A DNA stretch of 64,000 bases from a virus (lineage: Duplodnaviria; Heunggongvirae; Uroviricota; Caudoviricetes), in IMG/VR virus record IMGVR_UViG_2576861193_000002, one strand, 5' to 3'. Each line of letters starts with the position of its first letter. Position 1 is the first letter of the stretch. Below, piece after piece: positions 31,104 through 41,802 of this stretch. Under the pieces are notes generated by a model that saw only the letters and a program-made list of their open reading frames with translations, had not been told where the DNA came from and ran no database searches. The translations under genes were made by a program, and so were the position numbers.

Positions 31104-32108
<1,005 letters not shown>

Positions 32109-32482
32109 TTATTTTGTAGTCTAGCCTTCTGGCCCTGTTACGCAACATCTCATCACCCCATTACCCTGAAATGATTAATAAAATTCTGTCTAAATTGAAT
32201 ACAAAAAGCAAAATGCTTTTCCGTATACAAACCGTGTGAAGTGTTAAATAGCGTCTATCATTATCAGAATTATCTGATCATATGACGTGGCTTTTTTGCG
32301 ATCGGATAGCAACAAAAATTGATAAAAATAACGGGATCTCAATGATTACGCACAACTTCAATACCCTGGACTTACTCACCAGTCCTGTCTGGAATGGTTA
32401 GCACTATTAATAATAATTTATAAAACAGTATGTTATAGTGCTTTTGTTTTTGGTTTTGGATATTTGGTCACTATTTGGTACA

Positions 32483-32510
32483 CAAAAAGAAACGAGGCGT
32501 TAGCCTCGTT
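32483..32510 (-). terminator. intrinsic terminator after tail fibre gene
   Basis: Hairpin aacgaggc-gtta-gcctcgtt followed by U-run on minus strand. Confidence 0.55.
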
Positions 32511-32541
32511 TCGCGCGGCGATGTTCTTCGCACATCACCTC

Positions 32542-34731
32542 TTATTCTTCGCTTCCGGTCAACTGCCGGACAAGCTCTTCAAGTTTTGTGATCCGTTCAT
32601 CCATGACGGCAATGTTAGCTCGTAGGCTGGCATTCTCCCCTTCCAGTTCGGTGACGCGGTTATCTGTTTCGTGTGCCACCTGGACAAGTAAGCCAGTCAC
32701 TGCGGCATAATCAACATTGAGGTAACGCGATTCTTCGCGTAGCTCGTTGCCATCAATGGTCGGCCCCTGCAACTCTTTGCCGTAATGAGTAAACGATCCA
32801 ACAGCCTCCGGTAGCGCCTCCATAACCTCCTGAGCGATAACACCAGCGTAAGGCAGGCCGTTTTCCTTAAGGGTATAAGTGTACCCGTTCATTTTGCGGA
32901 TGGCTTCAGTTGCGTTATTTATAACCTGAATGTTGTCTTTAAGGTCGCGATCAGATGATTGATTTACTGATAAGCAAGTAACGCTTCCAGACGCTTTAAT
33001 ATTTGTCACATCAAGTCTGTCGTTTGCAAAATTATATGAGATTGCTGTGCTTGTGCTTCCGGCATCATCATAATTGCTTTTATGAATAAACCAGTTTCCG
33101 CCATTAGCAATAAGGGTATAAGCTGGCGTGTTAGCCGGGCGATCTGTTTCATCAAATCTTATTGCAGGGTTAGCACTATTTATTTGCAAAGGTTTTTCAA
33201 GCGTTGATTTCAGTATCGCACTATCTACAATTAAATTACCTTCTGAGTTAAGGTTTAGATATTTTGAATCACCAGTTGAACCATTGTATACAAACCTTAT
33301 TGTTAATTGACTTTTCCCTTCTGATAAAGTCTGAGCATACATATAAGCTGCAAGACGCAAATCGTCGTTAGTTGACAATAGTCTTGTGCGGAGGATTCCA
33401 CTAGATGTGCCTACGTCTGTCGAATCACTATATTTATCAAGAAATAGACTATTAAGCTGAGGGCTATTATCCCTGCCCAACCCTAGATTAGTTCTGGCAT
33501 TATCAAGGCTTGTCGCACCAGTGCCGCCTTGAGCAACGGCTAACGGTATCCATTTTTTTTGCGTATCGCTGTAACAACCCCACGATGAGGCAGATAAACC
33601 AAGTCGCATAGAGTTGTCAGCGTTATATATCCATGTTTCGCTGCCCCACTCACTAACCCTTTCGGTTGATACCATTTTTTTCCATGCGCTCCAACCTTGC
33701 CCGCCATACGACCTTCTGTAACTAATTTTCATATCGTTAAACAAATAATAGGTCTGCATGCACCCTTCTGAATCACCTGCGCCAGTTTTTTGCACTAACA
33801 ATGAACCAGCAATCTGTATGGGGTAATTTAATTCAGGTTTTGCGTTTGCTGATAATACTTGATGATAAAATCCTGCTGCGCTTCCTTTTAAGTCATCAAG
33901 ATTCTGTCTATCGCTAAGGGTAGTTTTTGCATCATGCATAACCATTAGGTTTTTTCTGGCTTCTGCTGCGTTTCCAGCACCAGTACCGCCATACATAACG
34001 CCTAACTTAAGTGCCCCGGCGGTTGAATAAGCACCCCACCCAGCGTTATTAACGAAGATGTAATTTTTATTTTCTCCGTCCCGCAACTGAGTTTCTTTTG
34101 AGGAACCACCATTTTGAAGCAAGCGATTTACTTCATCCTTGCGTGCGTGGCGTGTCCAGTTCTGGCCTGATGCTGCGACCCATGTATAAGTATAAAGTGA
34201 TCGCGTAGACCAACCGACAAAGACGCCAGCATATGAAGGCGACGCATCCCGCTGACAGATAAATCCACTCAAAAATGATTCGCCAGCCGCTACGGAAGGA
34301 AAGCCCTTAGTCGTTTCCTTTATGCGCAAAAAGCCAACGTAAGAAGACGGATCGCCTGATATATCGACGCAATCTCGCGGCTCTGGACCCAAGCCAATAT
34401 TGCTGCCATCTATTGCGCTTGATATTTCATCTTCCTTTTCCTGATAAAAACGAAGTGTTTCAGCTACATCCTGGGCAAGCCCATCAACTGAGATCGAATC
34501 AGAAAGCAGAATACTAAATTTTGTTCCGGCAGGGATGGCGGGGTTAGCCGCTGGCGTTACTGACAGTTCAGTACCGCTTTTAATTTCTGTGATGGTAAAG
34601 ATCTGCACCGGATTGCCGATTGCAATGAGCGTGCAACCTACACGAATGAGAGAAAGCGGCGCGGAAAAGTTTGTTCCCGTGCCTGTAACAGTATTGCCAT
34701 TAATGGCAATTGTTCCAGTTGTGTAAATCAT
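32542..34731 (-). CDS. tail fibre/tailspike with C-terminal intramolecular chaperone (peptidase S74-like) domain
   Basis: 729 aa; C-terminus …DLKDNIQVINNATEAIRKMNGYTYT… with coiled-coil tail, typical of autoproteolytic fibre chaperone domains. Confidence 0.75.
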   Translation of the reverse strand: MIYTTGTIAINGNTVTGTGTNFSAPLSLIRVGCTLIAIGNPVQIFTITEIKSGTELSVTPAANPAIPAGTKFSILLSDSISVDGLAQDVAETLRFYQEKEDEISSAIDGSNIGLGPEPRDCVDISGDPSSYVGFLRIKETTKGFPSVAAGESFLSGFICQRDASPSYAGVFVGWSTRSLYTYTWVAASGQNWTRHARKDEVNRLLQNGGSSKETQLRDGENKNYIFVNNAGWGAYSTAGALKLGVMYGGTGAGNAAEARKNLMVMHDAKTTLSDRQNLDDLKGSAAGFYHQVLSANAKPELNYPIQIAGSLLVQKTGAGDSEGCMQTYYLFNDMKISYRRSYGGQGWSAWKKMVSTERVSEWGSETWIYNADNSMRLGLSASSWGCYSDTQKKWIPLAVAQGGTGATSLDNARTNLGLGRDNSPQLNSLFLDKYSDSTDVGTSSGILRTRLLSTNDDLRLAAYMYAQTLSEGKSQLTIRFVYNGSTGDSKYLNLNSEGNLIVDSAILKSTLEKPLQINSANPAIRFDETDRPANTPAYTLIANGGNWFIHKSNYDDAGSTSTAISYNFANDRLDVTNIKASGSVTCLSVNQSSDRDLKDNIQVINNATEAIRKMNGYTYTLKENGLPYAGVIAQEVMEALPEAVGSFTHYGKELQGPTIDGNELREESRYLNVDYAAVTGLLVQVAHETDNRVTELEGENASLRANIAVMDERITKLEELVRQLTGSEE

Positions 34732-34865
34732 CGCAATGACTCCATTTTGTTAATTAACGGAATAATTCTACCATTTTGTGATCTGTGTTGCATTTTATGC
34801 TTATACAAAATGTATATTATAATAAACAAAGCAACAAATACACACAATCTGAGTGGGGTGTACTA

Positions 34866-35084
34866 ATGAAAATGGTAACAATTATCGCTGTTGCGGCTAT
34901 TCTGGTTGGTTGCGCTGACACTAATCGACACAACGGTCATTGTGCAACTAGCGCATACGGTGTCTGCTATGAAAGATGGGTTGATGGTGTAATGGTTCCT
35001 GCCGGGGAAATTTGTCGGGTGTATGATGGCACTGATGGCCATAGTGGCAAGACTAGAGATTGCGGAAGTAAGGAGTGGTATTAA
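34866..35084 (+). CDS. Cys-rich small lipoprotein (candidate receptor-masking / superinfection exclusion)
   Basis: 72 aa; signal peptide + lipobox LVGC; 6 Cys; counter-oriented between tail fibre and J. Confidence 0.55.
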   Translation: MKMVTIIAVAAILVGCADTNRHNGHCATSAYGVCYERWVDGVMVPAGEICRVYDGTDGHSGKTRDCGSKEWY

Positions 35085-36019
35085 TGGGTGCAGGTATATA
35101 TATTGGGCTGAATGACGGACGCCCTGCAATGGAAATAACAAGCGGGTTGCGTGCGTTCTCACACGCTGGAGATTTCAATATTCAAAAGGCCGGGTTTTTG
35201 CAAAGTTTTTCCATAAAGGATTTAACTGGCGGAGATAAGTTTTTAATCCCAAAGGCAGGCGCTTACGCGTTTGAGCTTGACCGGGGCGTTGAAACATATT
35301 TTATATCAGGCTTTAGTGCTTCTGGTGGCACGGCAAGGATTTCAATTAGTGGTGAGAACGCATATTCTGATAGGATCACTAATTTTAGCGGTAGCGTGTT
35401 TGAGATAGCAAAGGCGTCTACTGGTGAGGGTATATTAGTTGCAGATAGCACAGGTTTTGCATCGATAACGACTAACGATACATTGATGTCATGTTTATGG
35501 GTTGGAAGTGTTAGCTTTACTGGGTCTTACACTATGCCAGTTGCTGGCGTTCCTTTCGGTAACTGGAGCAATAGCGGAGTTTCAGTTGAGTTTGACGGAA
35601 ACAATAAATTGATCTGTACAAACACAAACACCTCTTCCACTGGTGACACATATGGATCTGTGGCGATGAATTTGGCTATTTTTAGCAAATCACCGCCATC
35701 ACCTGGCGACGGAATAACCATCATCAATAAAAATAATCAATGCGTGTTTTCAACAAAACAAAGGCCATTGGTTGTTAAGGGATTTATAACGTTATCTAAT
35801 AGTTATCAGAATATTGGTGACGCATTCTTCCCAATATTGAGATGCGGCTTTAATACCAGAGCCATTAAAGCATACAAGGAGCTAAGATACAAAGGCATTA
35901 TGATGTACAATGGGCAGGTGAAAAGCGGAACAGGATCAAGGATTGTCAGGTATGAAATAGGTAACAGGCCGGATTTCTGTATAGGTATGAAGCTACCTTA
36001 TTTGCCAGCAATTTATTAA
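35084..36019 (+). CDS. hypothetical Ser/Thr/Gly-rich protein
   Basis: ~311 aa; ATG overlaps lipoprotein stop, SD aaggag; no recognisable family. Confidence 0.5.
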   Translation: MGAGIYIGLNDGRPAMEITSGLRAFSHAGDFNIQKAGFLQSFSIKDLTGGDKFLIPKAGAYAFELDRGVETYFISGFSASGGTARISISGENAYSDRITNFSGSVFEIAKASTGEGILVADSTGFASITTNDTLMSCLWVGSVSFTGSYTMPVAGVPFGNWSNSGVSVEFDGNNKLICTNTNTSSTGDTYGSVAMNLAIFSKSPPSPGDGITIINKNNQCVFSTKQRPLVVKGFITLSNSYQNIGDAFFPILRCGFNTRAIKAYKELRYKGIMMYNGQVKSGTGSRIVRYEIGNRPDFCIGMKLPYLPAIY

Positions 36020-36059
36020 TAAAATTAGTTGCCCCAACCATTTGGCGGGGCAACAGTTA

Positions 36060-39000
36060 TTACCAAACACCAATAATAATTTTACCACCACTAGGAAGAT
36101 TTACCGTAATGCCGTTATTGTTAATAATTACCCGTCCGTCACTATTGCGTACATCGAAATTTTGATTGCCTTTAACAATGACGTTACCCCTTACGGTGAC
36201 TTCGTTGAATTGCGCCCATCCATCTTTGTTAATCATCCAACCTTTTGAGTCTTGAACAAATACGGTTGACTGGATTTGCTGCGCTATTTTTGCAGTACCG
36301 ATAGATCCGTCTTTAATAAACGCTTCTTTAACATACATTGCATCATTGGTGGTATAGAAAGGTGATGTGTATGTGCCGTTTGCTGCGGTCATCAACACGA
36401 AGCGGTCAACGAGGAAAATACACTGCGATTGAACGTTAGTGCCGCTACCAGTCAGCCCAAGAGACATACCTGTTGCATACTTCATGCCGTTGTTGTCGGT
36501 TGCCAGCTTGATAGAGTACGTCGCATCAACATTACCTTTGAAGTCGGTTAACGCTTTCGACGTCGTCTGTATCGCTGTTGTGTTCCCGTTAACGGTCACT
36601 GTTAGCTGATCGATTTTGCTTGATAATGCCTCGTCAGCCGTCGCCATTGCCTGCGACCATTCTGTAATATTTGAGTTTACAGAATCGAAAGACGCTGAGA
36701 TCTGGCCAAATTTTTCCGCGCTTGATGCTTCATGCGTAGAAAGTGCCGTTGACACCTCTGATACCTTCGAATTAATCGTACTGGTAAGCGATGAGTTAAG
36801 ACTACTGATTGCGTCAGTACGGGCCTTCGTTTCGTCTGCAATAGCCTTATCAATACGGGTTACGTTACTTGTCACCTTACTATCAAGCGTGGAAATTGAT
36901 GCGTTCACTCCGCTGATAGCCTGGGCGCGGGCGCTTGATTCGTCGGCAATAGCCTGATCCAGCCTGCTAACTTCAGATTCAGTGTTGTTTTCAAGCGTGC
37001 TAATACTTGCATTCACTCCACTGATAGCTTCAGTTCTTGCGCTTGTCTCATCTGCAATGGCTTTATCAAGACGGCTTATTCTTGAATCCGTTTTCTTGTC
37101 TAGCGCTGACACTGAGGCATTTACTCCGCTGATAGCCTCGCTGCGTGCGCTGGTTTCGTCTGCAATTGCCCTATCAAGGCGGTTGACGCTTGCTTCCGTC
37201 TTCCTATCAAGATCGGTGATCGATGCGTTTACGGAGCTAATGGCTTCCGCTGTGGCTTTTTTCTCCTCTGCTATAACATTGTCAATACGGTCAATTTGCG
37301 CGTTGGTTTCTTTGCGGCCTTTCTTGTATTGGGCCGTGAGAGTAACCCGCGTGTTGGTTTGAGCAATAGAGTTGTTGATAAGTGCGATTGAGGCGTTTTG
37401 CAGACTTGCTTTAGTCTGATTTATTTCGTCGCTGTTTTTGTCAACGTTATTTTCAACAGTGCCAAGCTCCGCGCTGATGCCCGATATTGCCTGTGCACGG
37501 GCGCTTGATTCATCTGCAATTGCCTGATCAAGACGTTTAACGCTGGCGTTTGTGCTATTTTCAAGCGTTGTTAAATCAGCTTTAACCTCTGTTATTGCGG
37601 CGCTTCTTGCCTGCGTTTCATCTGATATTGCTTTATCAAGACGGGAAACGCTCGCGTCAGTTTTGCTTTCAAGATTGCTTATTGAGGCGTTAACGTCGCT
37701 AATGGCCTGGGTGCGGGCACTGGTTTCATCTGCAACCGCTTGATCCAGTCTGCTTACTTCTGATTCTGTATTGTTTTCAAGTGTGCTAATACTTGCATTC
37801 ACGCTACTGATAGCGTCTGTGCGTGCTTTTGTTTCGTCTGCTATCGCTTTATCAATGCGGTTAATGTTGCTTGTAACTTTGCCGTCAAGCGTGGAAATTG
37901 AGGTATTCACGCCGCTGATGGCTTCAGTTCTTGCACTGGTTTCATCTGCAATTGCCTGATCCAAGCGTTTTACGCTGGCGTCAGTTTTCTTGTCTAGCGT
38001 TGAAATACTTGCATTTACGTCGCTGATGGCTTGAGTCCGCGCGCTAGTCTCGTCAGCGATTGCTTGATCAAGGCGGTTAACGCTTGCGTCAGTTTTCTTA
38101 TCAAGATTGCTTATTGAAGCGTTTACACCGTTAATAGCTTCAGCGCGGGCGCTGGCCTCGTCAGCTACTGCGCGCTGCACGTTAGAAATCTGACCTTTAA
38201 GGTTGGAGTCCATCGTATTCATTTCTGCTGTGATGGTTTCCAGTGATTCCGCTGTCGCTTTTTTCTCTTCAGCGATAACGTTGTCAATGCGGTCGATTTC
38301 CGCTTTAGTCTCTGTCCTGCCTTTCTTGTACTGAGCGGTAAGAGTTACGCGCGTGTTTGTCTGTGCAAGTGAGTTATTAATAAGAGCAAGTGACGCGTTT
38401 TGCAGGCTTGCTTTTGCTTGCGCCAGTTCGCTGCCAACTTTTTCGCTGGACACTTCTAATGAGTCAATTCTTGCCTCATGCTGTCCAATATCATCGGCGT
38501 TTTCCTCAACCTTTTTATAAAGATCTTCCGTTTCTTTTTTCAGTGTGTCCGTATCAGCTTTTATGGCCCCTGTTTCTGTGATTAGGCCGTCCGTATCAAT
38601 CCTCAAATCGTCAGTGATGTTTGTCAGGTTGTCCGTGTCAACCCTCAAATCGTCAGTGATGTTTGTCAGGTTATCAGTTGCAGTTTTGAGGTTGTCGGTA
38701 GCAGTTTTAAGGTCATTTGTAGCGCTTTCGATAAGATCAGCGCGGTCGCCAAGATCTTTAATGTCGCTAATCATCCCCTTAAACTGTTCTGAATTAATTA
38801 CGTCTTTTGTGACGTAGTCGCTAATTTCATCGAAGTTTTCAGTTGGTTTGCCTGATGCCTCAACGAAATCTGACACGCCAAAAGCGTTACGTGTACGAAT
38901 ATAAACGTAATAGGTGTGCCCCGTGTTCATGCCGCCAAAAGTCCACTGATAGCCGCGCCCGGTAAACTGCGCTGATGTGGTTACTTTTGATGGATCTGTG

Positions 39001-41243
39001 ATCTGGTTTTCACCTGCGAAGTAAAATTCGTATGCTGTATCAGTGGTCAGGGTTGTTTTGCTAATCGGATACACTGTTGCCTGGAAAACACCAGGAACCC
39101 AATTAACGCCGACCGGGGCCGCTGGTGCACCAATAACCAGGTCCACAATACTTTCCGCACCCTTCATGCCAGTGTCATTACGCCCGCGAATACCAAGCGT
39201 GTAGCTGCCAGTATCAAGGCCATAAAACTCATAGCGGTAATTCGTTGTTTCATAAGTTGCCACCACGCGGCCTTCGGCGTTATATACGCGTATTTCAAAG
39301 GTCAGGCGATGCGTTGTCGTCTGTGTTTCCCATGTAGCGCGACATTGAACAGTTTCAGAACCAACATTTAACACCTTCAGGTTTTCAATGTTCGGCACGC
39401 GGAAGTGATTAAGCGTGTCGTTGTTTACCTCAAAGATTGCGCCTTCATCGACTACAGCCTGTTTATGTGGGTCATGCTGTGCTGCCTCGATGGTGTACAC
39501 GCTGTTGTTTTCAGTTTCTGCTACGCTGATGATTCGGCACAGGACGGGTTTTGCTGCGTCAGTTGATACAGCAAAAACAGTTCCGTTACGAATCCACGCG
39601 GGGGCGGCTGCAAGGGTGATATTGTTTCCGTTAACTCCGGTGATCTGGTGTTTTTTAAACTTGCCATCACTATCAAGTAAACTAATGGTATCGCCTGCGG
39701 CGATGTATTCCGAATCAACCTTATCTACCGTTATCACCTTGCCATTATTCGCCACGATACGACCGCCAAAACGAGCGCCTGCGCGGTTATTGTCGAGTAT
39801 CTCGATAATATCCCCAGGGGTGAAGTGAATTGCGTCGCGGGCCATTTTAAACGTGAATTTTGATGGTTCGCGTTTTGCTGTTTCTATCAGCCACTTGCCA
39901 GCGCGGTATGCCTGCCCGCGTGAAGTGCAACCGAAAGCCTCTAGCGTGGTTTCGTTATAACCATCGCGGGCGATCAATTCATCATCTGCCACGTATTCTT
40001 TTGATTGCTCCCAACCGTTTTCCGGGTCAGTCCATGACACGATAACTGCGTTGTAAGATTCTGCACGGGCAATACTTGAACGAGTAAACGCGCCATCAAC
40101 AACGTTAGCATTCGTGATGGTAGCAATTGGATCTTGCGGTGCATCAATCATCACCGTAAGGCGCTGCCCATCCCATAACGCGATACCACGGAACATGCCT
40201 GCGATATTGTCCAGTAAGTCGCGGGCGCTCATTTGCTCAGTTATGTAAGCATTAAGCGTCATGCGAGGTTCAAAGCCGCCGTAACCGTCGTTTACCAACT
40301 GGTCGCAGTATTGAGAAAGCGTATATAATGCGCCGTCGTCAACATCAATGTAACCAGCATGACGTGCAAGCCCGAAACGTTCATTTTTAACCAGATACCG
40401 GAATAGCCACGCAGGGTTATTGGTGTACGCTTTTTTAAATCCACCTAGCCATAAACCTGAATACGTGCGCGTTTCAGGGTTATAGTTGTCAGGCACATCA
40501 ACAATCAGTCCGCGCAGATGATAGGTGCGGGTAGGTGTATCAGTATACTGGTCATGGTCAATTACAGCACCAGCTACAGCGGTATGAGGGTAAGACAGGT
40601 TATCGTCGATTATTTCGCTGTAGCTACTCCACCGCGTATCATTACGAAGAAGATCGCTTTTGCTGTCTGCTGTTACGCGACGAACGCGAATATCAAACGG
40701 CTTTTCATCCGGCGCTTTGATAATGTGAGCTTCCAGATATTCACCGCTTTGTTTACCGGGACCAATGTGTATACCTTTAACCGGCGACCACGTAGAAGAT
40801 GATGACGGTTTAACATCAACCACCAACATAACGGATGTATTATATTGATTGCCCTCATCATCTGACTGAACAAGAGCATCAACGCCAAGATTTAACCTTA
40901 CGCGGGTAACGTTTGGATCTGAAACAGTCCTTATTATTGGCGTGTCGTGAGTTACCTTTGCGTTGACAATAACGGTTGATTCGATGGCATTAAAACCATT
41001 AATCGGCGATTGGTCAGCCGTGCCGTTGCGCCAGGCTATACTAATCCCAGGAATTGATGTGTTTCCGTTTGCGTCAGTGATAGGCGTGTCATTAAGCATT
41101 ACGTTGTTTAATGGCGCATTCTGGTTAACTACTCCAAAAATTGGTCCTTCACTTAGAATATCTAAAACCCGATAAAATTGTTTATGAAACAAATTATCAT
41201 TAAGCAAAGTTGGTGTTTTTGCTTTACCGCCGCCACTAGACAT
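36060..41243 (-). CDS. J-like host specificity / central tail fibre protein with long coiled-coil repeat insert
   Basis: 1727 aa; follows L-K-I; middle third is tandem ~35-aa repeats (…DETSARTQAISDVNASISTLDKKTDASVKRLDQAIA…). Confidence 0.85.
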   Translation of the reverse strand: MSSGGGKAKTPTLLNDNLFHKQFYRVLDILSEGPIFGVVNQNAPLNNVMLNDTPITDANGNTSIPGISIAWRNGTADQSPINGFNAIESTVIVNAKVTHDTPIIRTVSDPNVTRVRLNLGVDALVQSDDEGNQYNTSVMLVVDVKPSSSSTWSPVKGIHIGPGKQSGEYLEAHIIKAPDEKPFDIRVRRVTADSKSDLLRNDTRWSSYSEIIDDNLSYPHTAVAGAVIDHDQYTDTPTRTYHLRGLIVDVPDNYNPETRTYSGLWLGGFKKAYTNNPAWLFRYLVKNERFGLARHAGYIDVDDGALYTLSQYCDQLVNDGYGGFEPRMTLNAYITEQMSARDLLDNIAGMFRGIALWDGQRLTVMIDAPQDPIATITNANVVDGAFTRSSIARAESYNAVIVSWTDPENGWEQSKEYVADDELIARDGYNETTLEAFGCTSRGQAYRAGKWLIETAKREPSKFTFKMARDAIHFTPGDIIEILDNNRAGARFGGRIVANNGKVITVDKVDSEYIAAGDTISLLDSDGKFKKHQITGVNGNNITLAAAPAWIRNGTVFAVSTDAAKPVLCRIISVAETENNSVYTIEAAQHDPHKQAVVDEGAIFEVNNDTLNHFRVPNIENLKVLNVGSETVQCRATWETQTTTHRLTFEIRVYNAEGRVVATYETTNYRYEFYGLDTGSYTLGIRGRNDTGMKGAESIVDLVIGAPAAPVGVNWVPGVFQATVYPISKTTLTTDTAYEFYFAGENQITDPSKVTTSAQFTGRGYQWTFGGMNTGHTYYVYIRTRNAFGVSDFVEASGKPTENFDEISDYVTKDVINSEQFKGMISDIKDLGDRADLIESATNDLKTATDNLKTATDNLTNITDDLRVDTDNLTNITDDLRIDTDGLITETGAIKADTDTLKKETEDLYKKVEENADDIGQHEARIDSLEVSSEKVGSELAQAKASLQNASLALINNSLAQTNTRVTLTAQYKKGRTETKAEIDRIDNVIAEEKKATAESLETITAEMNTMDSNLKGQISNVQRAVADEASARAEAINGVNASISNLDKKTDASVNRLDQAIADETSARTQAISDVNASISTLDKKTDASVKRLDQAIADETSARTEAISGVNTSISTLDGKVTSNINRIDKAIADETKARTDAISSVNASISTLENNTESEVSRLDQAVADETSARTQAISDVNASISNLESKTDASVSRLDKAISDETQARSAAITEVKADLTTLENSTNASVKRLDQAIADESSARAQAISGISAELGTVENNVDKNSDEINQTKASLQNASIALINNSIAQTNTRVTLTAQYKKGRKETNAQIDRIDNVIAEEKKATAEAISSVNASITDLDRKTEASVNRLDRAIADETSARSEAISGVNASVSALDKKTDSRISRLDKAIADETSARTEAISGVNASISTLENNTESEVSRLDQAIADESSARAQAISGVNASISTLDSKVTSNVTRIDKAIADETKARTDAISSLNSSLTSTINSKVSEVSTALSTHEASSAEKFGQISASFDSVNSNITEWSQAMATADEALSSKIDQLTVTVNGNTTAIQTTSKALTDFKGNVDATYSIKLATDNNGMKYATGMSLGLTGSGTNVQSQCIFLVDRFVLMTAANGTYTSPFYTTNDAMYVKEAFIKDGSIGTAKIAQQIQSTVFVQDSKGWMINKDGWAQFNEVTVRGNVIVKGNQNFDVRNSDGRVIINNNGITVNLPSGGKIIIGVW

Positions 41244-41802
41244 ATAGACCCCCTGTTTCGTGTAATTTCGTGTATCCTGCGCCAGCTTTATTTAGCTCTT
41301 CAATCATGAATGACCGCCACGCGACGGCGGCATTAATAGCCATTTCAAGTCCACCGCACGCTATAACGCTAAATGATTTACTAACTCTTTTGTCGTTATC
41401 AGCGGTGATACGTGCTCTAATAGATCTCCCTTCTGCGTGCCAACATATCCCAAATGGCAATCCGCTCTCCCTTGTCGCGCGACCTATGGTCATATTTCTG
41501 GCGTTACCTTTTTTATCTGTTACGCGTATGTTATTGAATTTATTATTAAGCCCATTACCATCAATGTGATCGATGATCTCACTGCGTTTTAATTTTCTGC
41601 CACTGCATAATTCGTAAACAATCCGGTGAGCATAATAGCGACGGCCCTTCCATGTGATTTTCCAGTACTTATTGCCGCTTTTTGCCGCTACTATTTTTCC
41701 TGCCGCATCGCCAGTCCTCGCCGTTCTGCTGTTAGCGGTGACTTTCCACCTTAAACATGAAGGAGAATCTTCATCATAAACAAACAATTCAGACCAGTTC
41801 AC
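41236..41802 (-). CDS. HNH homing endonuclease (HNH_3-type)
   Basis: 188 aa; motif IDHIDGNGLNNKFNNIR; inserted between tail genes I and J. Confidence 0.75.
   Translation of the reverse strand: MNWSELFVYDEDSPSCLRWKVTANSRTARTGDAAGKIVAAKSGNKYWKITWKGRRYYAHRIVYELCSGRKLKRSEIIDHIDGNGLNNKFNNIRVTDKKGNARNMTIGRATRESGLPFGICWHAEGRSIRARITADNDKRVSKSFSVIACGGLEMAINAAVAWRSFMIEELNKAGAGYTKLHETGGLYV

What the first reader, a model, noticed from the sequence alone, without database searches (positions are those of the whole stretch)
34738..36019. Cys-rich lipoprotein and coupled 311-aa protein wedged between J and the side tail fibre
A 72-aa lipoprotein with six cysteines and a translationally coupled Ser/Thr/Gly-rich protein lie on the opposite strand between the two receptor-binding genes. 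Receptor-masking lipoproteins (T5 Llp, phi80/N15 Cor) are typically encoded next to the receptor-binding gene, so this pair is a candidate receptor-blocking system.
Basis: inference. Interest (0 to 1): 0.6.

Follow-up and report, generated by a model that had tools for sequence, protein, structure and literature searches.

The report
Phage receptor-binding protein plus blocking lipoprotein
The two genes are a known prophage module: the 311-residue protein is most likely the tail-tip protein that binds the host receptor (predicted to be the LPS exporter LptD), and the small lipoprotein blocks that receptor from inside, so only half of the "blocking pair" idea holds.

Summary
The two genes exist as described: a 72-aa lipoprotein (34866..35084, +) overlapping by TAATG a 311-aa ORF (35084..36019, +), convergent with J and divergent from the side tail fibre of an E. 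coli prophage. One detail is wrong: the lipoprotein has five cysteines, not six.

Both have solved homologues. The 311-aa protein (Pfam DUF6453) matches the receptor-binding protein (RBP) of phage Oekolampad bound to LptDE (PDB 9RPT; E 1.2e-44; model TM 0.71/0.86). It is 62-64% identical to the RBPs of the LptD-dependent phages Bas02 and Bas01. The lipoprotein (PF24052) matches Rtp45, the superinfection-exclusion lipoprotein solved on the periplasmic face of LptD (PDB 9RPS; E 5.4e-20).

The pair is 96% identical to gp80/gp81 of temperate phage mEp021. Published work shows gp81 (Lpp021) excludes mEp021.

J here has no lambda-type receptor domain. Its last 74 codons, the RBP and the lipoprotein form one exchangeable cassette (34816..36283).

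The 311-aa protein is not a blocker; it is almost certainly the RBP.

The unresolved point is that mEp021 was reported to depend on OmpA, while homology predicts LptD. This is a new member of a known kind, of modest interest.

The parts
34732..34865 (+). AT-rich (31% GC) intergenic region between the divergent side-fibre gene and the lipoprotein gene. 34732..34815 is shared with LamB-type relatives. 34816..34865 is specific to this cassette and carries the lipoprotein ribosome-binding site (GGGGTG).
   Evidence: No sigma-70 consensus promoter was found on the + strand by the scan. A perfect TATAAT at 34818..34823 with a poor -35 was seen by eye only.
34866..35084 (+). Superinfection-exclusion lipoprotein, 72 aa. 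Signal peptide, lipobox LVGC, lipidated Cys16, Ala at +2 (outer-membrane sorting). Cys26 and Cys34 correspond to the Rtp45 Cys30-Cys38 disulfide. An extra Cys50/Cys66 pair flanks the hairpin.
   Evidence: PF24052 at 3.9e-30. PDB 9rps_D (Rtp45) at 5.4e-20. 96% identical to mEp021 gp81/Lpp021. Alignment A2.
35084..36019 (+). Receptor-binding protein, 311 aa, all-beta, DUF6453. Translationally coupled to the lipoprotein gene (TAATG).
   Evidence: PF20051 at 2.5e-103. PDB 9rpt_C at 1.2e-44. AF2 model pLDDT 79, pTM 0.81. Its only significant PDB fold match is 9rpt_C, TM 0.71/0.86. 62% identical to the Bas02 RBP, 64% to the Bas01 RBP, 96% to mEp021 gp80.
36028..36054 (.). Inverted repeat GTTGCCCC...GGGGCAAC between the convergent RBP and J genes. 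It is a likely bidirectional terminator.
   Evidence: Sequence. The homologous site in mEp021 is annotated as a terminator. It is not reported by the T-run-dependent scan.
36060..36283 (-). Last 74 codons of J. This is the tip that travels with the RBP and lipoprotein as one cassette, and is the presumed docking site for the RBP.
   Evidence: Homology to LamB-type mEp010 stops at 34815 and resumes at 36284. The last 45 aa retrieve J tips of Oekolampad, TheodorHerzl, Rtp, Bas84, DTL and XT34, all carriers of the DUF6453 module. J ends 36 aa after its Phage_Tail_Tip domain.
36060..41243 (-). Central tail fibre J, 1727 aa. It has a long coiled-coil repeat region and no lambda-type C-terminal receptor-binding domain.
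32542..34731 (-). Side (lateral) tail fibre, 729 aa, with a C-terminal Peptidase_S74 intramolecular chaperone. Only the first 108 aa are shared with mEp021 gp82.

Best explanation
This is the receptor-specificity cassette of a temperate mEp021-like (mEpimmI group) prophage of E. coli.

The 311-aa protein is a detachable receptor-binding protein (RBP). It is made in the cytoplasm and mounted on the short C-terminal tip of J. It binds the terminal outer-membrane receptor, which by homology is the LPS translocon LptDE. Its solved homologue inserts into an open state of the LptD barrel.

The 72-aa lipoprotein is exported, lipidated and sorted to the inner leaflet of the outer membrane. There it binds the periplasmic face of LptD and pushes a hairpin up the barrel lumen. 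This displaces extracellular loop 4, so the RBP can no longer bind. Lysogens or infected cells, and their debris, then stop adsorbing the same phage.

The TAATG overlap makes the blocker and the binder in one operon.

Shown here: gene structure, homology, fold, cassette boundaries and the absence of a receptor domain in J. Shown by others on 96% identical or homologous proteins: exclusion by Lpp021, and the cryo-EM structures RBP-LptDE and Rtp45-LptDE. Inferred: that this allele binds LptD, that the RBP docks on the J tip, and that the operon is expressed in the lysogen.

The confidence of 0.7 is for the full statement including LptD as the receptor. The RBP-plus-exclusion-lipoprotein identity alone I put above 0.9.
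For: 1. The RBP is homologous to solved and experimentally characterised RBPs.
- PDB 9RPT chain C, E 1.2e-44.
- The AF2 model has one significant PDB match, 9rpt_C: E 2.3e-15, TM 0.71/0.86.
- 62% identity over 311/311 residues to the RBP of Bas02, and 64% to that of Bas01. Both phages become unable to infect lptD loop mutants (PMC8594841).
- These values exceed the family criterion of >30% identity and >99% coverage used in bioRxiv 10.64898/2026.04.02.716166.

2. The lipoprotein is homologous to Rtp45.
- PDB 9RPS chain D, E 5.4e-20.
- The lipobox and the Cys30-Cys38 disulfide pair are conserved. The strand that pairs with LptD beta-6 is CATSAY here and CATQAS in Rtp45. The hairpin is also conserved.
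- Mechanism: PMC12685063.

3. The pair is 96% identical to mEp021 gp81 and gp80. Lpp021 excludes mEp021 and mEp515 (PMC11893012). gp80 is annotated as a virion structural protein in a record whose labels appear to follow virion mass spectrometry.

4. The gene order is the same in Oekolampad, Bas02 and two other E. coli prophages: fibre(-) / lipoprotein(+) / RBP(+) / J(-).

5. A natural experiment exists inside the same phage group. LamB-dependent mEp010 lacks the DUF6453 gene and has an unrelated lipoprotein. Its J carries about 124 extra C-terminal residues that align with lambda J through its C-terminal 300 residues, which include the receptor-binding region. The window's J stops 36 aa after the Tail_Tip domain. 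The breakpoints define one cassette, 34816..36283.

6. The J tip co-occurs with the module in other phages.

7. The RBP has no signal peptide or transmembrane segment. Ala at +2 of the mature lipoprotein fits outer-membrane sorting (sequence; Lol sorting rule).
Against: - PMC11893012 reports that mEp021 and mEp515 plate about 10^2 PFU/mL on a Keio ompA mutant. The authors name OmpA as the main receptor and J as the binder. LptD was not tested, because it is essential and absent from the Keio set.
- LptD-type BASEL phages showed no ompA dependence (PMC8594841). The OmpA requirement is therefore specific to mEp021 and still has to be explained.
- The receptor-contacting loops of this RBP family are poorly conserved (PMC13035648), so sequence alone cannot prove LptD specificity.
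- No promoter was found by the consensus scan, so expression in the lysogen is unproven.
- The virion location of gp80 is read from a GenBank product name, not from a table I could see.
Confidence: 0.7

Rival explanations
1. Same module, switched receptor. The mEp021-clade DUF6453 protein has been retargeted from LptD to OmpA, and the lipoprotein blocks OmpA rather than LptD.
For: - mEp021 and mEp515 are strongly inhibited on an ompA knockout, and Lpp021 excludes exactly these two phages (PMC11893012).
- The OmpA requirement must be encoded in something that differs from LamB-type mEp010. The candidates are this cassette or the side fibre.
- Receptor-contact loops in the family vary (PMC13035648).
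- The temperate-clade lipoproteins carry an extra cysteine pair not seen in Rtp45, Bas02 or Oekolampad.
Against: - RBPs only 33-36% identical to each other all use LptD, while this one is 62-64% identical to proven LptD binders (PMC12685063).
- The Rtp45 mechanism needs a wide barrel lumen for the hairpin. OmpA is an 8-stranded barrel without one (established structure).
- The LptD-pairing strand and the hairpin of Rtp45 are conserved here.
- There is a precedent for a dual requirement: Bas01 needs both NupG and LptD (bioRxiv 10.64898/2026.04.02.716166).
Confidence: 0.15
2. Both proteins together form a receptor-masking system expressed by the prophage, and the 311-aa protein is a membrane or periplasmic partner of the lipoprotein.
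For: - The genes are translationally coupled and lie on the strand opposite to the tail operon.
- PHROG 1265 and several GenBank records label homologues 'membrane protein'.
Against: - The protein has no signal peptide and no hydrophobic segment: maximum Kyte-Doolittle over 19 residues is 0.96.
- It is homologous in sequence and fold to a solved RBP that binds the extracellular face of LptD.
- The same pair occurs in about 300-400 mostly virulent phage records, where it correlates with receptor use (PMC8594841).
- J lacks a receptor domain of its own.
- The lipoprotein alone is enough for exclusion (PMC11893012).
Confidence: 0.03
3. The 311-aa protein is a tail-fibre assembly chaperone or another non-receptor virion accessory protein.
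For: - Its position next to a fibre gene.
- The mEp021 record notes 'putative flagellar hook-associated protein FlgL'.
- A very weak NCBIfam hit to a flagellar rod protein, E 0.069, 12 bits against a cut-off of 258.
Against: - No chaperone family matched in Pfam, PHROGs or NCBIfam.
- The side fibre carries its own intramolecular chaperone, Peptidase_S74.
- The match to a solved RBP is strong.
Confidence: 0.02

Closest known systems
mEp021 gp80 / gp81 (Lpp021), temperate coliphage of the mEpimmI group (MH706966; PMC11893012)
   Same: 95.5% nucleotide identity across the finding and 96% amino-acid identity for both proteins. Same order, same TAATG coupling, same J with a 100% identical last 45 aa. 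Lpp021 was shown experimentally to exclude mEp021 and mEp515.
   Different: The side fibre differs after residue 108. The lipoprotein differs at 3 residues and the RBP at 12. The paper assigns receptor binding to J and names OmpA as receptor. It does not discuss gp80 or LptD.
Rtp44 / Rtp45 of phage Rtp and the near-identical Bas01 AugustePiccard pair (Drexlerviridae, Braunvirinae)
   Same: Same two families, order and position downstream of J. The RBP is 64% identical to Bas01's, which is 96% identical to Rtp44 (PMC12685063). The lipoprotein is 57% identical to Rtp45, and the disulfide and hairpin are conserved. The Rtp45-LptDE structure gives the exclusion mechanism.
   Different: Those phages are virulent, whereas here the host is a temperate prophage with a 1727-aa coiled-coil J. 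The lipoprotein has an extra Cys50/Cys66 pair.
Oekolampad (Bas18) RBP and SE lipoprotein (PDB 9RPT/9RPW/9RQI)
   Same: Same fold (TM 0.71/0.86). 36% identity for the RBP and 47% for the lipoprotein. Identical gene order including the lateral fibre.
   Different: More distant in sequence, with a 2-nt gap instead of a TAATG overlap. It is a Dhillonvirus and virulent.
T5 pb5 / Llp, and Cor of T1, phi80 and N15
   Same: Same logic: an RBP on the central fibre tip, plus a small periplasmic lipoprotein that makes the receptor unusable.
   Different: No detectable homology. The target there is FhuA. Llp acts by long-range allostery, whereas Rtp45 acts by steric displacement of LptD loop 4 (PMC12685063).
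Lambda J and mEp010 J (receptor domain fused to J)
   Same: Same J scaffold. mEp010's J is 82% identical to the window's J until about 25-35 aa from the end.
   Different: Those J proteins carry a C-terminal receptor domain of about 124-150 aa and have no separate RBP gene. Here that domain is replaced by a short tip plus a separate 311-aa RBP.

Membership tests
LptDE-type detachable RBP of small siphoviruses (Pfam PF20051 / DUF6453; RBP_Oeko, Rtp44) | Sequence membership in PF20051 above the gathering score | tested here: met
   345.9 bits against a cut-off of 25, covering residues 4-291 of 311.
LptDE-type detachable RBP of small siphoviruses (Pfam PF20051 / DUF6453; RBP_Oeko, Rtp44) | Homology and shared fold with the solved RBP_Oeko | tested here: met
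   phmmer E 1.2e-44 to 9rpt_C. AF2 model against PDB: E 2.3e-15, TM 0.71/0.86, the only significant hit.
LptDE-type detachable RBP of small siphoviruses (Pfam PF20051 / DUF6453; RBP_Oeko, Rtp44) | >30% identity and >99% coverage to RBPs of experimentally LptD-dependent phages (criterion of bioRxiv 10.64898/2026.04.02.716166) | tested here: met
   62% over 311/311 residues to Bas02. 64% with 100% coverage to Bas01.
LptDE-type detachable RBP of small siphoviruses (Pfam PF20051 / DUF6453; RBP_Oeko, Rtp44) | Encoded directly downstream of gpJ on the opposite strand, next to a small lipoprotein gene | tested here: met
LptDE-type detachable RBP of small siphoviruses (Pfam PF20051 / DUF6453; RBP_Oeko, Rtp44) | The partner J lacks its own receptor domain and carries the matching C-terminal tip | tested here: met
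   J ends 36 aa after the Tail_Tip domain, whereas mEp010 and lambda J continue. The tip retrieves J of carriers of the module. The overlap was checked only on the listed rows.
LptDE-type detachable RBP of small siphoviruses (Pfam PF20051 / DUF6453; RBP_Oeko, Rtp44) | Present in the virion | not testable with these tools
   Indirect only. mEp021_80 is labelled 'virion structural protein' in a record from a study that ran mass spectrometry on virions.
LptDE-type detachable RBP of small siphoviruses (Pfam PF20051 / DUF6453; RBP_Oeko, Rtp44) | Binds LptD, and infection is lost on lptD loop mutants | not testable with these tools
   No experiment was possible. Published data for mEp021 point to OmpA dependence, and LptD was not examined (PMC11893012).
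Rtp45-type superinfection-exclusion lipoprotein (Pfam PF24052) | Signal peptide with a lipobox and an outer-membrane sorting residue | tested here: met
   MKMVTIIAVAAILVG|C with Ala at +2.
Rtp45-type superinfection-exclusion lipoprotein (Pfam PF24052) | Sequence membership and homology to solved Rtp45 | tested here: met
   PF24052 at 104 bits against a cut-off of 27. 9rps_D at E 5.4e-20.
Rtp45-type superinfection-exclusion lipoprotein (Pfam PF24052) | Conserved Cys30-Cys38 disulfide pair and C-terminal hairpin | tested here: met
   Cys26 and Cys34 are invariant in alignment A2, and the hairpin segment is conserved. The disulfide itself is inferred.
Rtp45-type superinfection-exclusion lipoprotein (Pfam PF24052) | Excludes the cognate phage when expressed alone | not testable with these tools
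   Published for the 96% identical Lpp021 (PMC11893012).
Rtp45-type superinfection-exclusion lipoprotein (Pfam PF24052) | Binds the periplasmic face of LptDE | not testable with these tools
   Shown only for Rtp45 (PMC12685063).
Cor (T1/phi80/N15) superinfection-exclusion lipoprotein | Sequence similarity beyond the signal peptide | tested here: not met
   PHROG 1119 at E 0.011, matching residues 1-31 only.
T5 Llp | Sequence similarity to Llp | tested here: not met
   phmmer against all PDB chains at E up to 10 returned only Rtp45. No Llp family appeared in Pfam or PHROGs.
Tail fibre assembly chaperone | Match to a known chaperone family | tested here: not met
   None in Pfam, PHROGs or NCBIfam.
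Known anti-phage defence systems (PADLOC) | Match to a PADLOC model | tested here: not met
   0 families for both proteins.

The most novel reading that the evidence does not exclude
The mEp021-clade RBP has switched receptor from the 26-stranded LptD barrel to the small 8-stranded OmpA, and its Rtp45-like lipoprotein, stapled by an extra disulfide, now blocks OmpA.

This would be a new specificity and a new exclusion mechanism within a family whose solved mechanism depends on a wide barrel lumen.

The milder and more likely novelty is a temperate phage with a dual OmpA plus LptD requirement, whose prophage keeps a lipoprotein plug on the essential LPS translocon of its host.
Probability: 0.15. 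Interest if true: 0.55.

Novelty: new member of a known kind. Interest (0 to 1): 0.3.

Why it matters
It assigns a mechanism and a testable receptor (LptD) to two genes still labelled 'DUF6453' and 'hypothetical' in E. coli genomes.

It also shows that the receptor module studied in virulent T1-like phages occurs in temperate gut coliphages, as one portable cassette made of the J tip, the RBP and the blocker.

It flags a conflict with the published OmpA/J assignment for mEp021. A few platings on existing lptD mutants would settle it.

If the lipoprotein is expressed in lysogens, it would sit on the essential LPS exporter. It could then give cross-immunity to the many LptD-dependent phages considered for therapy, and might affect outer-membrane biogenesis.

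Tried and rejected
- NCBIfam and PADLOC gave nothing meaningful.
- The consensus scan found no + strand promoter upstream of the lipoprotein and no T-run terminator. The hairpin at 36028..36054 and a TATAAT at 34818 were seen only by eye.
- The mass-spectrometry list of mEp021 virion proteins is in a figure that is not held. The supplements mention only gp81 primers. Virion location of gp80 therefore rests on the GenBank label.
- Residue-level contact tables for RBP_Oeko-LptD and Rtp45-LptD are images in the PNAS supplement. Contact-residue conservation could not be scored.
- The original Rtp paper (PMC1367250) is not held.
- The in-frame GTG at 34785 would give a 99-aa product. I rejected it in favour of ATG 34866, on the ribosome-binding site, the position of the signal peptide and the mEp021 annotation.
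- The minus-strand ORFs inside the region (34863..35162, 35263..35451, 35527..35727) have no support and were treated as shadow ORFs.
- I did not attempt co-folding of the J tip with the RBP. The structure tool takes single chains of window sequence only.
Full report
**Observation**

The window carries E. coli chromosomal genes (dbpA, ynaL, zntB; 100% identical to several E. coli genomes). After them comes the right end of a prophage that runs from about 32542 to beyond the end of the window.

On the minus strand lie a 729-aa side tail fibre (32542..34731; Peptidase_S74 at residues 593-644) and a 1727-aa central fibre J (36060..41243; FNIII-A_GpJ, Phage-tail_3, Ig_J, Phage_Tail_Tip). Between them, on the plus strand, are two ORFs.
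- A 72-aa ORF at 34866..35084.
- A 311-aa ORF at 35084..36019. Its ATG shares a base with the stop of the first (TAATG), and an AAGGAG sits 8 nt upstream.

The first ORF has a textbook lipoprotein signal (MKMVTIIAVAAILVG|C). The second ORF is 30% Ser+Thr+Gly. It has no signal peptide and no hydrophobic segment (maximum Kyte-Doolittle over 19 residues is 0.96).

**What the two genes are**

Both fall in curated families. The lipoprotein is in PF24052 'Phage_lipoprotein' (104 bits, cut-off 27). The 311-aa protein is in PF20051 'DUF6453' (346 bits, cut-off 25). NCBIfam and PADLOC give nothing.

Both also have solved homologues.
- The 311-aa protein matches PDB 9RPT chain C at E 1.2e-44. That chain is the RBP of phage Oekolampad (Bas18) bound to the LptDE lipopolysaccharide translocon.
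- The lipoprotein matches PDB 9RPS chain D at E 5.4e-20. That chain is Rtp45, the superinfection-exclusion lipoprotein of phage Rtp bound to LptDE.

I built an AlphaFold2 model of the 311-aa protein from 22 homologues (pLDDT 79, pTM 0.81, all-beta). Its only significant match in the whole PDB is 9rpt_C (E 2.3e-15, TM 0.71/0.86).

**Closest relatives**

The region is 95.5% identical in DNA to temperate coliphages mEp021 and mEp515. The proteins are 96% identical to mEp021 gp81 and gp80.

Negrete-Mendez et al. (PMC11893012) cloned gp81 as 'Lpp021'. They showed that it excludes mEp021 and mEp515. gp80 is not discussed in that paper, but its GenBank product is 'virion structural protein'. In that record such labels also sit on otherwise unplaceable proteins such as gp41, and gp20 carries a 'Structural phage Protein' note. 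The study identified 16 virion proteins by mass spectrometry. I therefore infer, but could not verify, that gp80 was detected in virions.

Outside the mEp group, the RBP is 64% identical to that of AugustePiccard/Bas01 (P0005). Bas01's RBP is itself 96% identical to Rtp44 (PMC12685063). The RBP is 62% identical over its full length to that of JeanPiccard/Bas02 and 36% identical to Oekolampad's. The lipoprotein is 56% identical to Bas02's, 57% to Rtp45 and 47% to Oekolampad's.

Bas01, Bas02, Bas14 and Bas18 lose infectivity on lptD loop mutants (PMC8594841). The gene order fibre(-) / lipoprotein(+) / RBP(+) / J(-) is identical in Oekolampad. In Bas02 the same lipoprotein(+) / RBP(+) pair lies directly downstream of J(-). 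[quoted passage not shown]

About 400 phage records hold an RBP homologue and 319 a lipoprotein homologue. Most are virulent T1-like, Dhillonvirus, Queuovirinae and Klebsiella siphoviruses.

**J has no receptor domain of its own, and the module is a cassette**

The mEpimmI group contains an internal control. mEp010 depends on LamB (PMC11893012). Between its J and its fibre it has only an 82-aa lipoprotein that does not match PF24052 and a 42-aa ORF. It has no DUF6453 gene.

Its J is 82% identical to the window's J up to about 25-35 residues from the window protein's end. It then continues for about 124 more residues. The C-terminal 300 aa of mEp010 J align with the C-terminal 300 aa of lambda J almost end to end (E 1e-15). 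The window's J aligns with lambda J only in the Tail_Tip domain and stops 36 aa after it.

At the DNA level, homology to mEp010 ends at 34815 and resumes at 36284. The exchangeable unit is therefore 34816..36283. It contains a 50-nt leader, the lipoprotein, the RBP, a hairpin (36028..36054) and the last 74 codons of J.

The last 45 aa of J retrieve, weakly because the query is short, the J tips of Oekolampad, TheodorHerzl, Rtp, Bas84, DTL, XT34, PEC9, EK99P-1 and others. These phages also appear in the RBP or lipoprotein hit lists. This agrees with a recent preprint, which found the GpJ C-terminal tip to be specificity-associated and suggested it mediates compatibility with the RBP.

Two other E. 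coli prophages, at different chromosomal sites, have RBPs 80-81% identical to this one. They show the same order with J proteins of 1144 and 1229 aa.

**Mechanism**

Taking the solved homologues as the guide (PMC12685063), the RBP is mounted on the J tip and inserts into an open state of the LptD barrel. It contacts extracellular loops 3-5 and 11.

In the model, residues 111-127 are the least confident part, yet they are among the most conserved in sequence. The N-terminus is nearly invariant. This fits published observations that the conserved 'base' faces the tail and is disordered when the RBP is not on the tail (PMC13035648; PMC12685063). That link is inference.

The lipoprotein has Ala at +2 and so is sorted to the outer membrane. 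By homology it would bind between LptE and LptM on the periplasmic side, pair a strand (CATSAY here, CATQAS in Rtp45) with LptD beta-6, and push a hairpin up the lumen. That displaces loop 4 by up to 20 angstroms, so the RBP cannot bind.

The four temperate-clade lipoproteins (window, mEp021, L005, L006) all carry an additional cysteine pair, positions 50 and 66, at the base of that hairpin. Rtp45 and the Bas02 and Oekolampad lipoproteins lack both. A second disulfide stapling the hairpin is a reasonable inference, but it reflects one evolutionary event and is untested.

The TAATG overlap is conserved in mEp021, Bas02 and both other prophages. It implies co-expression of the binder and the blocker.

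**The open problem**

The mEp021 paper reports OmpA as the main receptor, with about 10^2 PFU/mL remaining on a Keio ompA mutant. It attributes recognition to J. LptD is essential and was not tested.

LptD-type BASEL phages were not affected by ompA deletion (PMC8594841). The OmpA requirement is therefore specific to mEp021. It must be encoded by something that differs from mEp010: this cassette or the side fibre.

I favour a dual requirement, with LptD as the terminal receptor via the RBP and OmpA via another determinant. The most plausible determinant is the distal side fibre gp82. The window's prophage does not share that part: only the first 108 aa are conserved. There is a precedent in Bas01, which needs both NupG and LptD. 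The alternative, that the RBP itself now binds OmpA, cannot be excluded by sequence. I give it about 15%.

**Comparison and novelty**

It is not homologous to them. It is a member of the Rtp44/Rtp45 (RBP_Oeko/SE_Oeko) module.

The kind is known and structurally explained. The near-identical mEp021 lipoprotein has been tested.

What I did not find in the papers read is the recognition that mEp021-type temperate phages carry the LptD-type module. The PNAS paper does not mention temperate phages or prophages, and the mEp021 paper mentions neither gp80 nor LptD.

The module is rare in E. coli chromosomes, at 3 of 5,426 complete genomes. The verdict is a new member of a known kind, of modest interest, with one concrete and cheaply testable discrepancy.

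Noticed in passing
window 36800..38750 (within J, - strand): J carries a long coiled-coil region built from degenerate 108-nt (36-aa) repeats of the type 'ADETSAR..AISGVNASIS.LD.KT...V.RLD.AI', plus 42-nt and 21-nt repeats. J length varies among relatives with the same cassette: 1144, 1229, 1707 and 1727 aa. The central fibre length appears to be evolving by repeat gain and loss.
   Followed up: partly
window 32542..34731 (-): The side tail fibre shares only its first 108 aa (92%) with mEp021 gp82. The rest is a different, longer distal part ending in a Peptidase_S74 intramolecular chaperone. The primary-receptor cassette has therefore been swapped independently of the RBP cassette.
   Followed up: partly
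window 41236..41802 (-): A 188-aa ORF overlaps the start of J and sits between tail assembly gene I and J. Its positional counterpart in mEp021 is annotated as an HNH endonuclease, suggesting a homing-type insertion inside the tail operon. The window ORF itself was not checked.
   Followed up: no
window 34738..34820: The 80 nt upstream of the side-fibre start codon are conserved (88-97%) in at least 13 other E. coli prophages that lack this RBP/lipoprotein allele. They mark the left recombination boundary of the cassette, and possibly a shared divergent promoter region.
   Followed up: partly
phage records H95-H103 and H140-H143: Weak but significant homologues (23-38% identity) of both the DUF6453 protein and the lipoprotein occur in 67-78-kb E. 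coli phages. Some of the listed names (for example vB_EcoP_EcoN5, vB_EcoP_DE5, vB-EcoP-XT32) carry the podovirus 'P' tag. The module family may reach beyond siphoviruses.
   Followed up: no
L007 9272..9520 (mEp010 gp116): The LamB-type exclusion lipoprotein of mEp010 has no Pfam family at all, although it is reported to exclude lambda. It is an uncharacterised family of LamB-directed exclusion proteins.
   Followed up: no
NZ_CP036177.1 (H31/H270): In E. coli WCHEC025970 the match to the cassette stops about 50 nt before the end of the RBP gene. This suggests a recombination junction inside the C-terminus of the RBP.
   Followed up: no
window 32088..32541: The prophage end abuts zntB with about 450 nt of intergenic DNA. 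Related prophages with the same cassette sit at other sites (near ynaI/uspE in L005, near abgT in L006). This is consistent with the several integrase types reported for the group.
   Followed up: no
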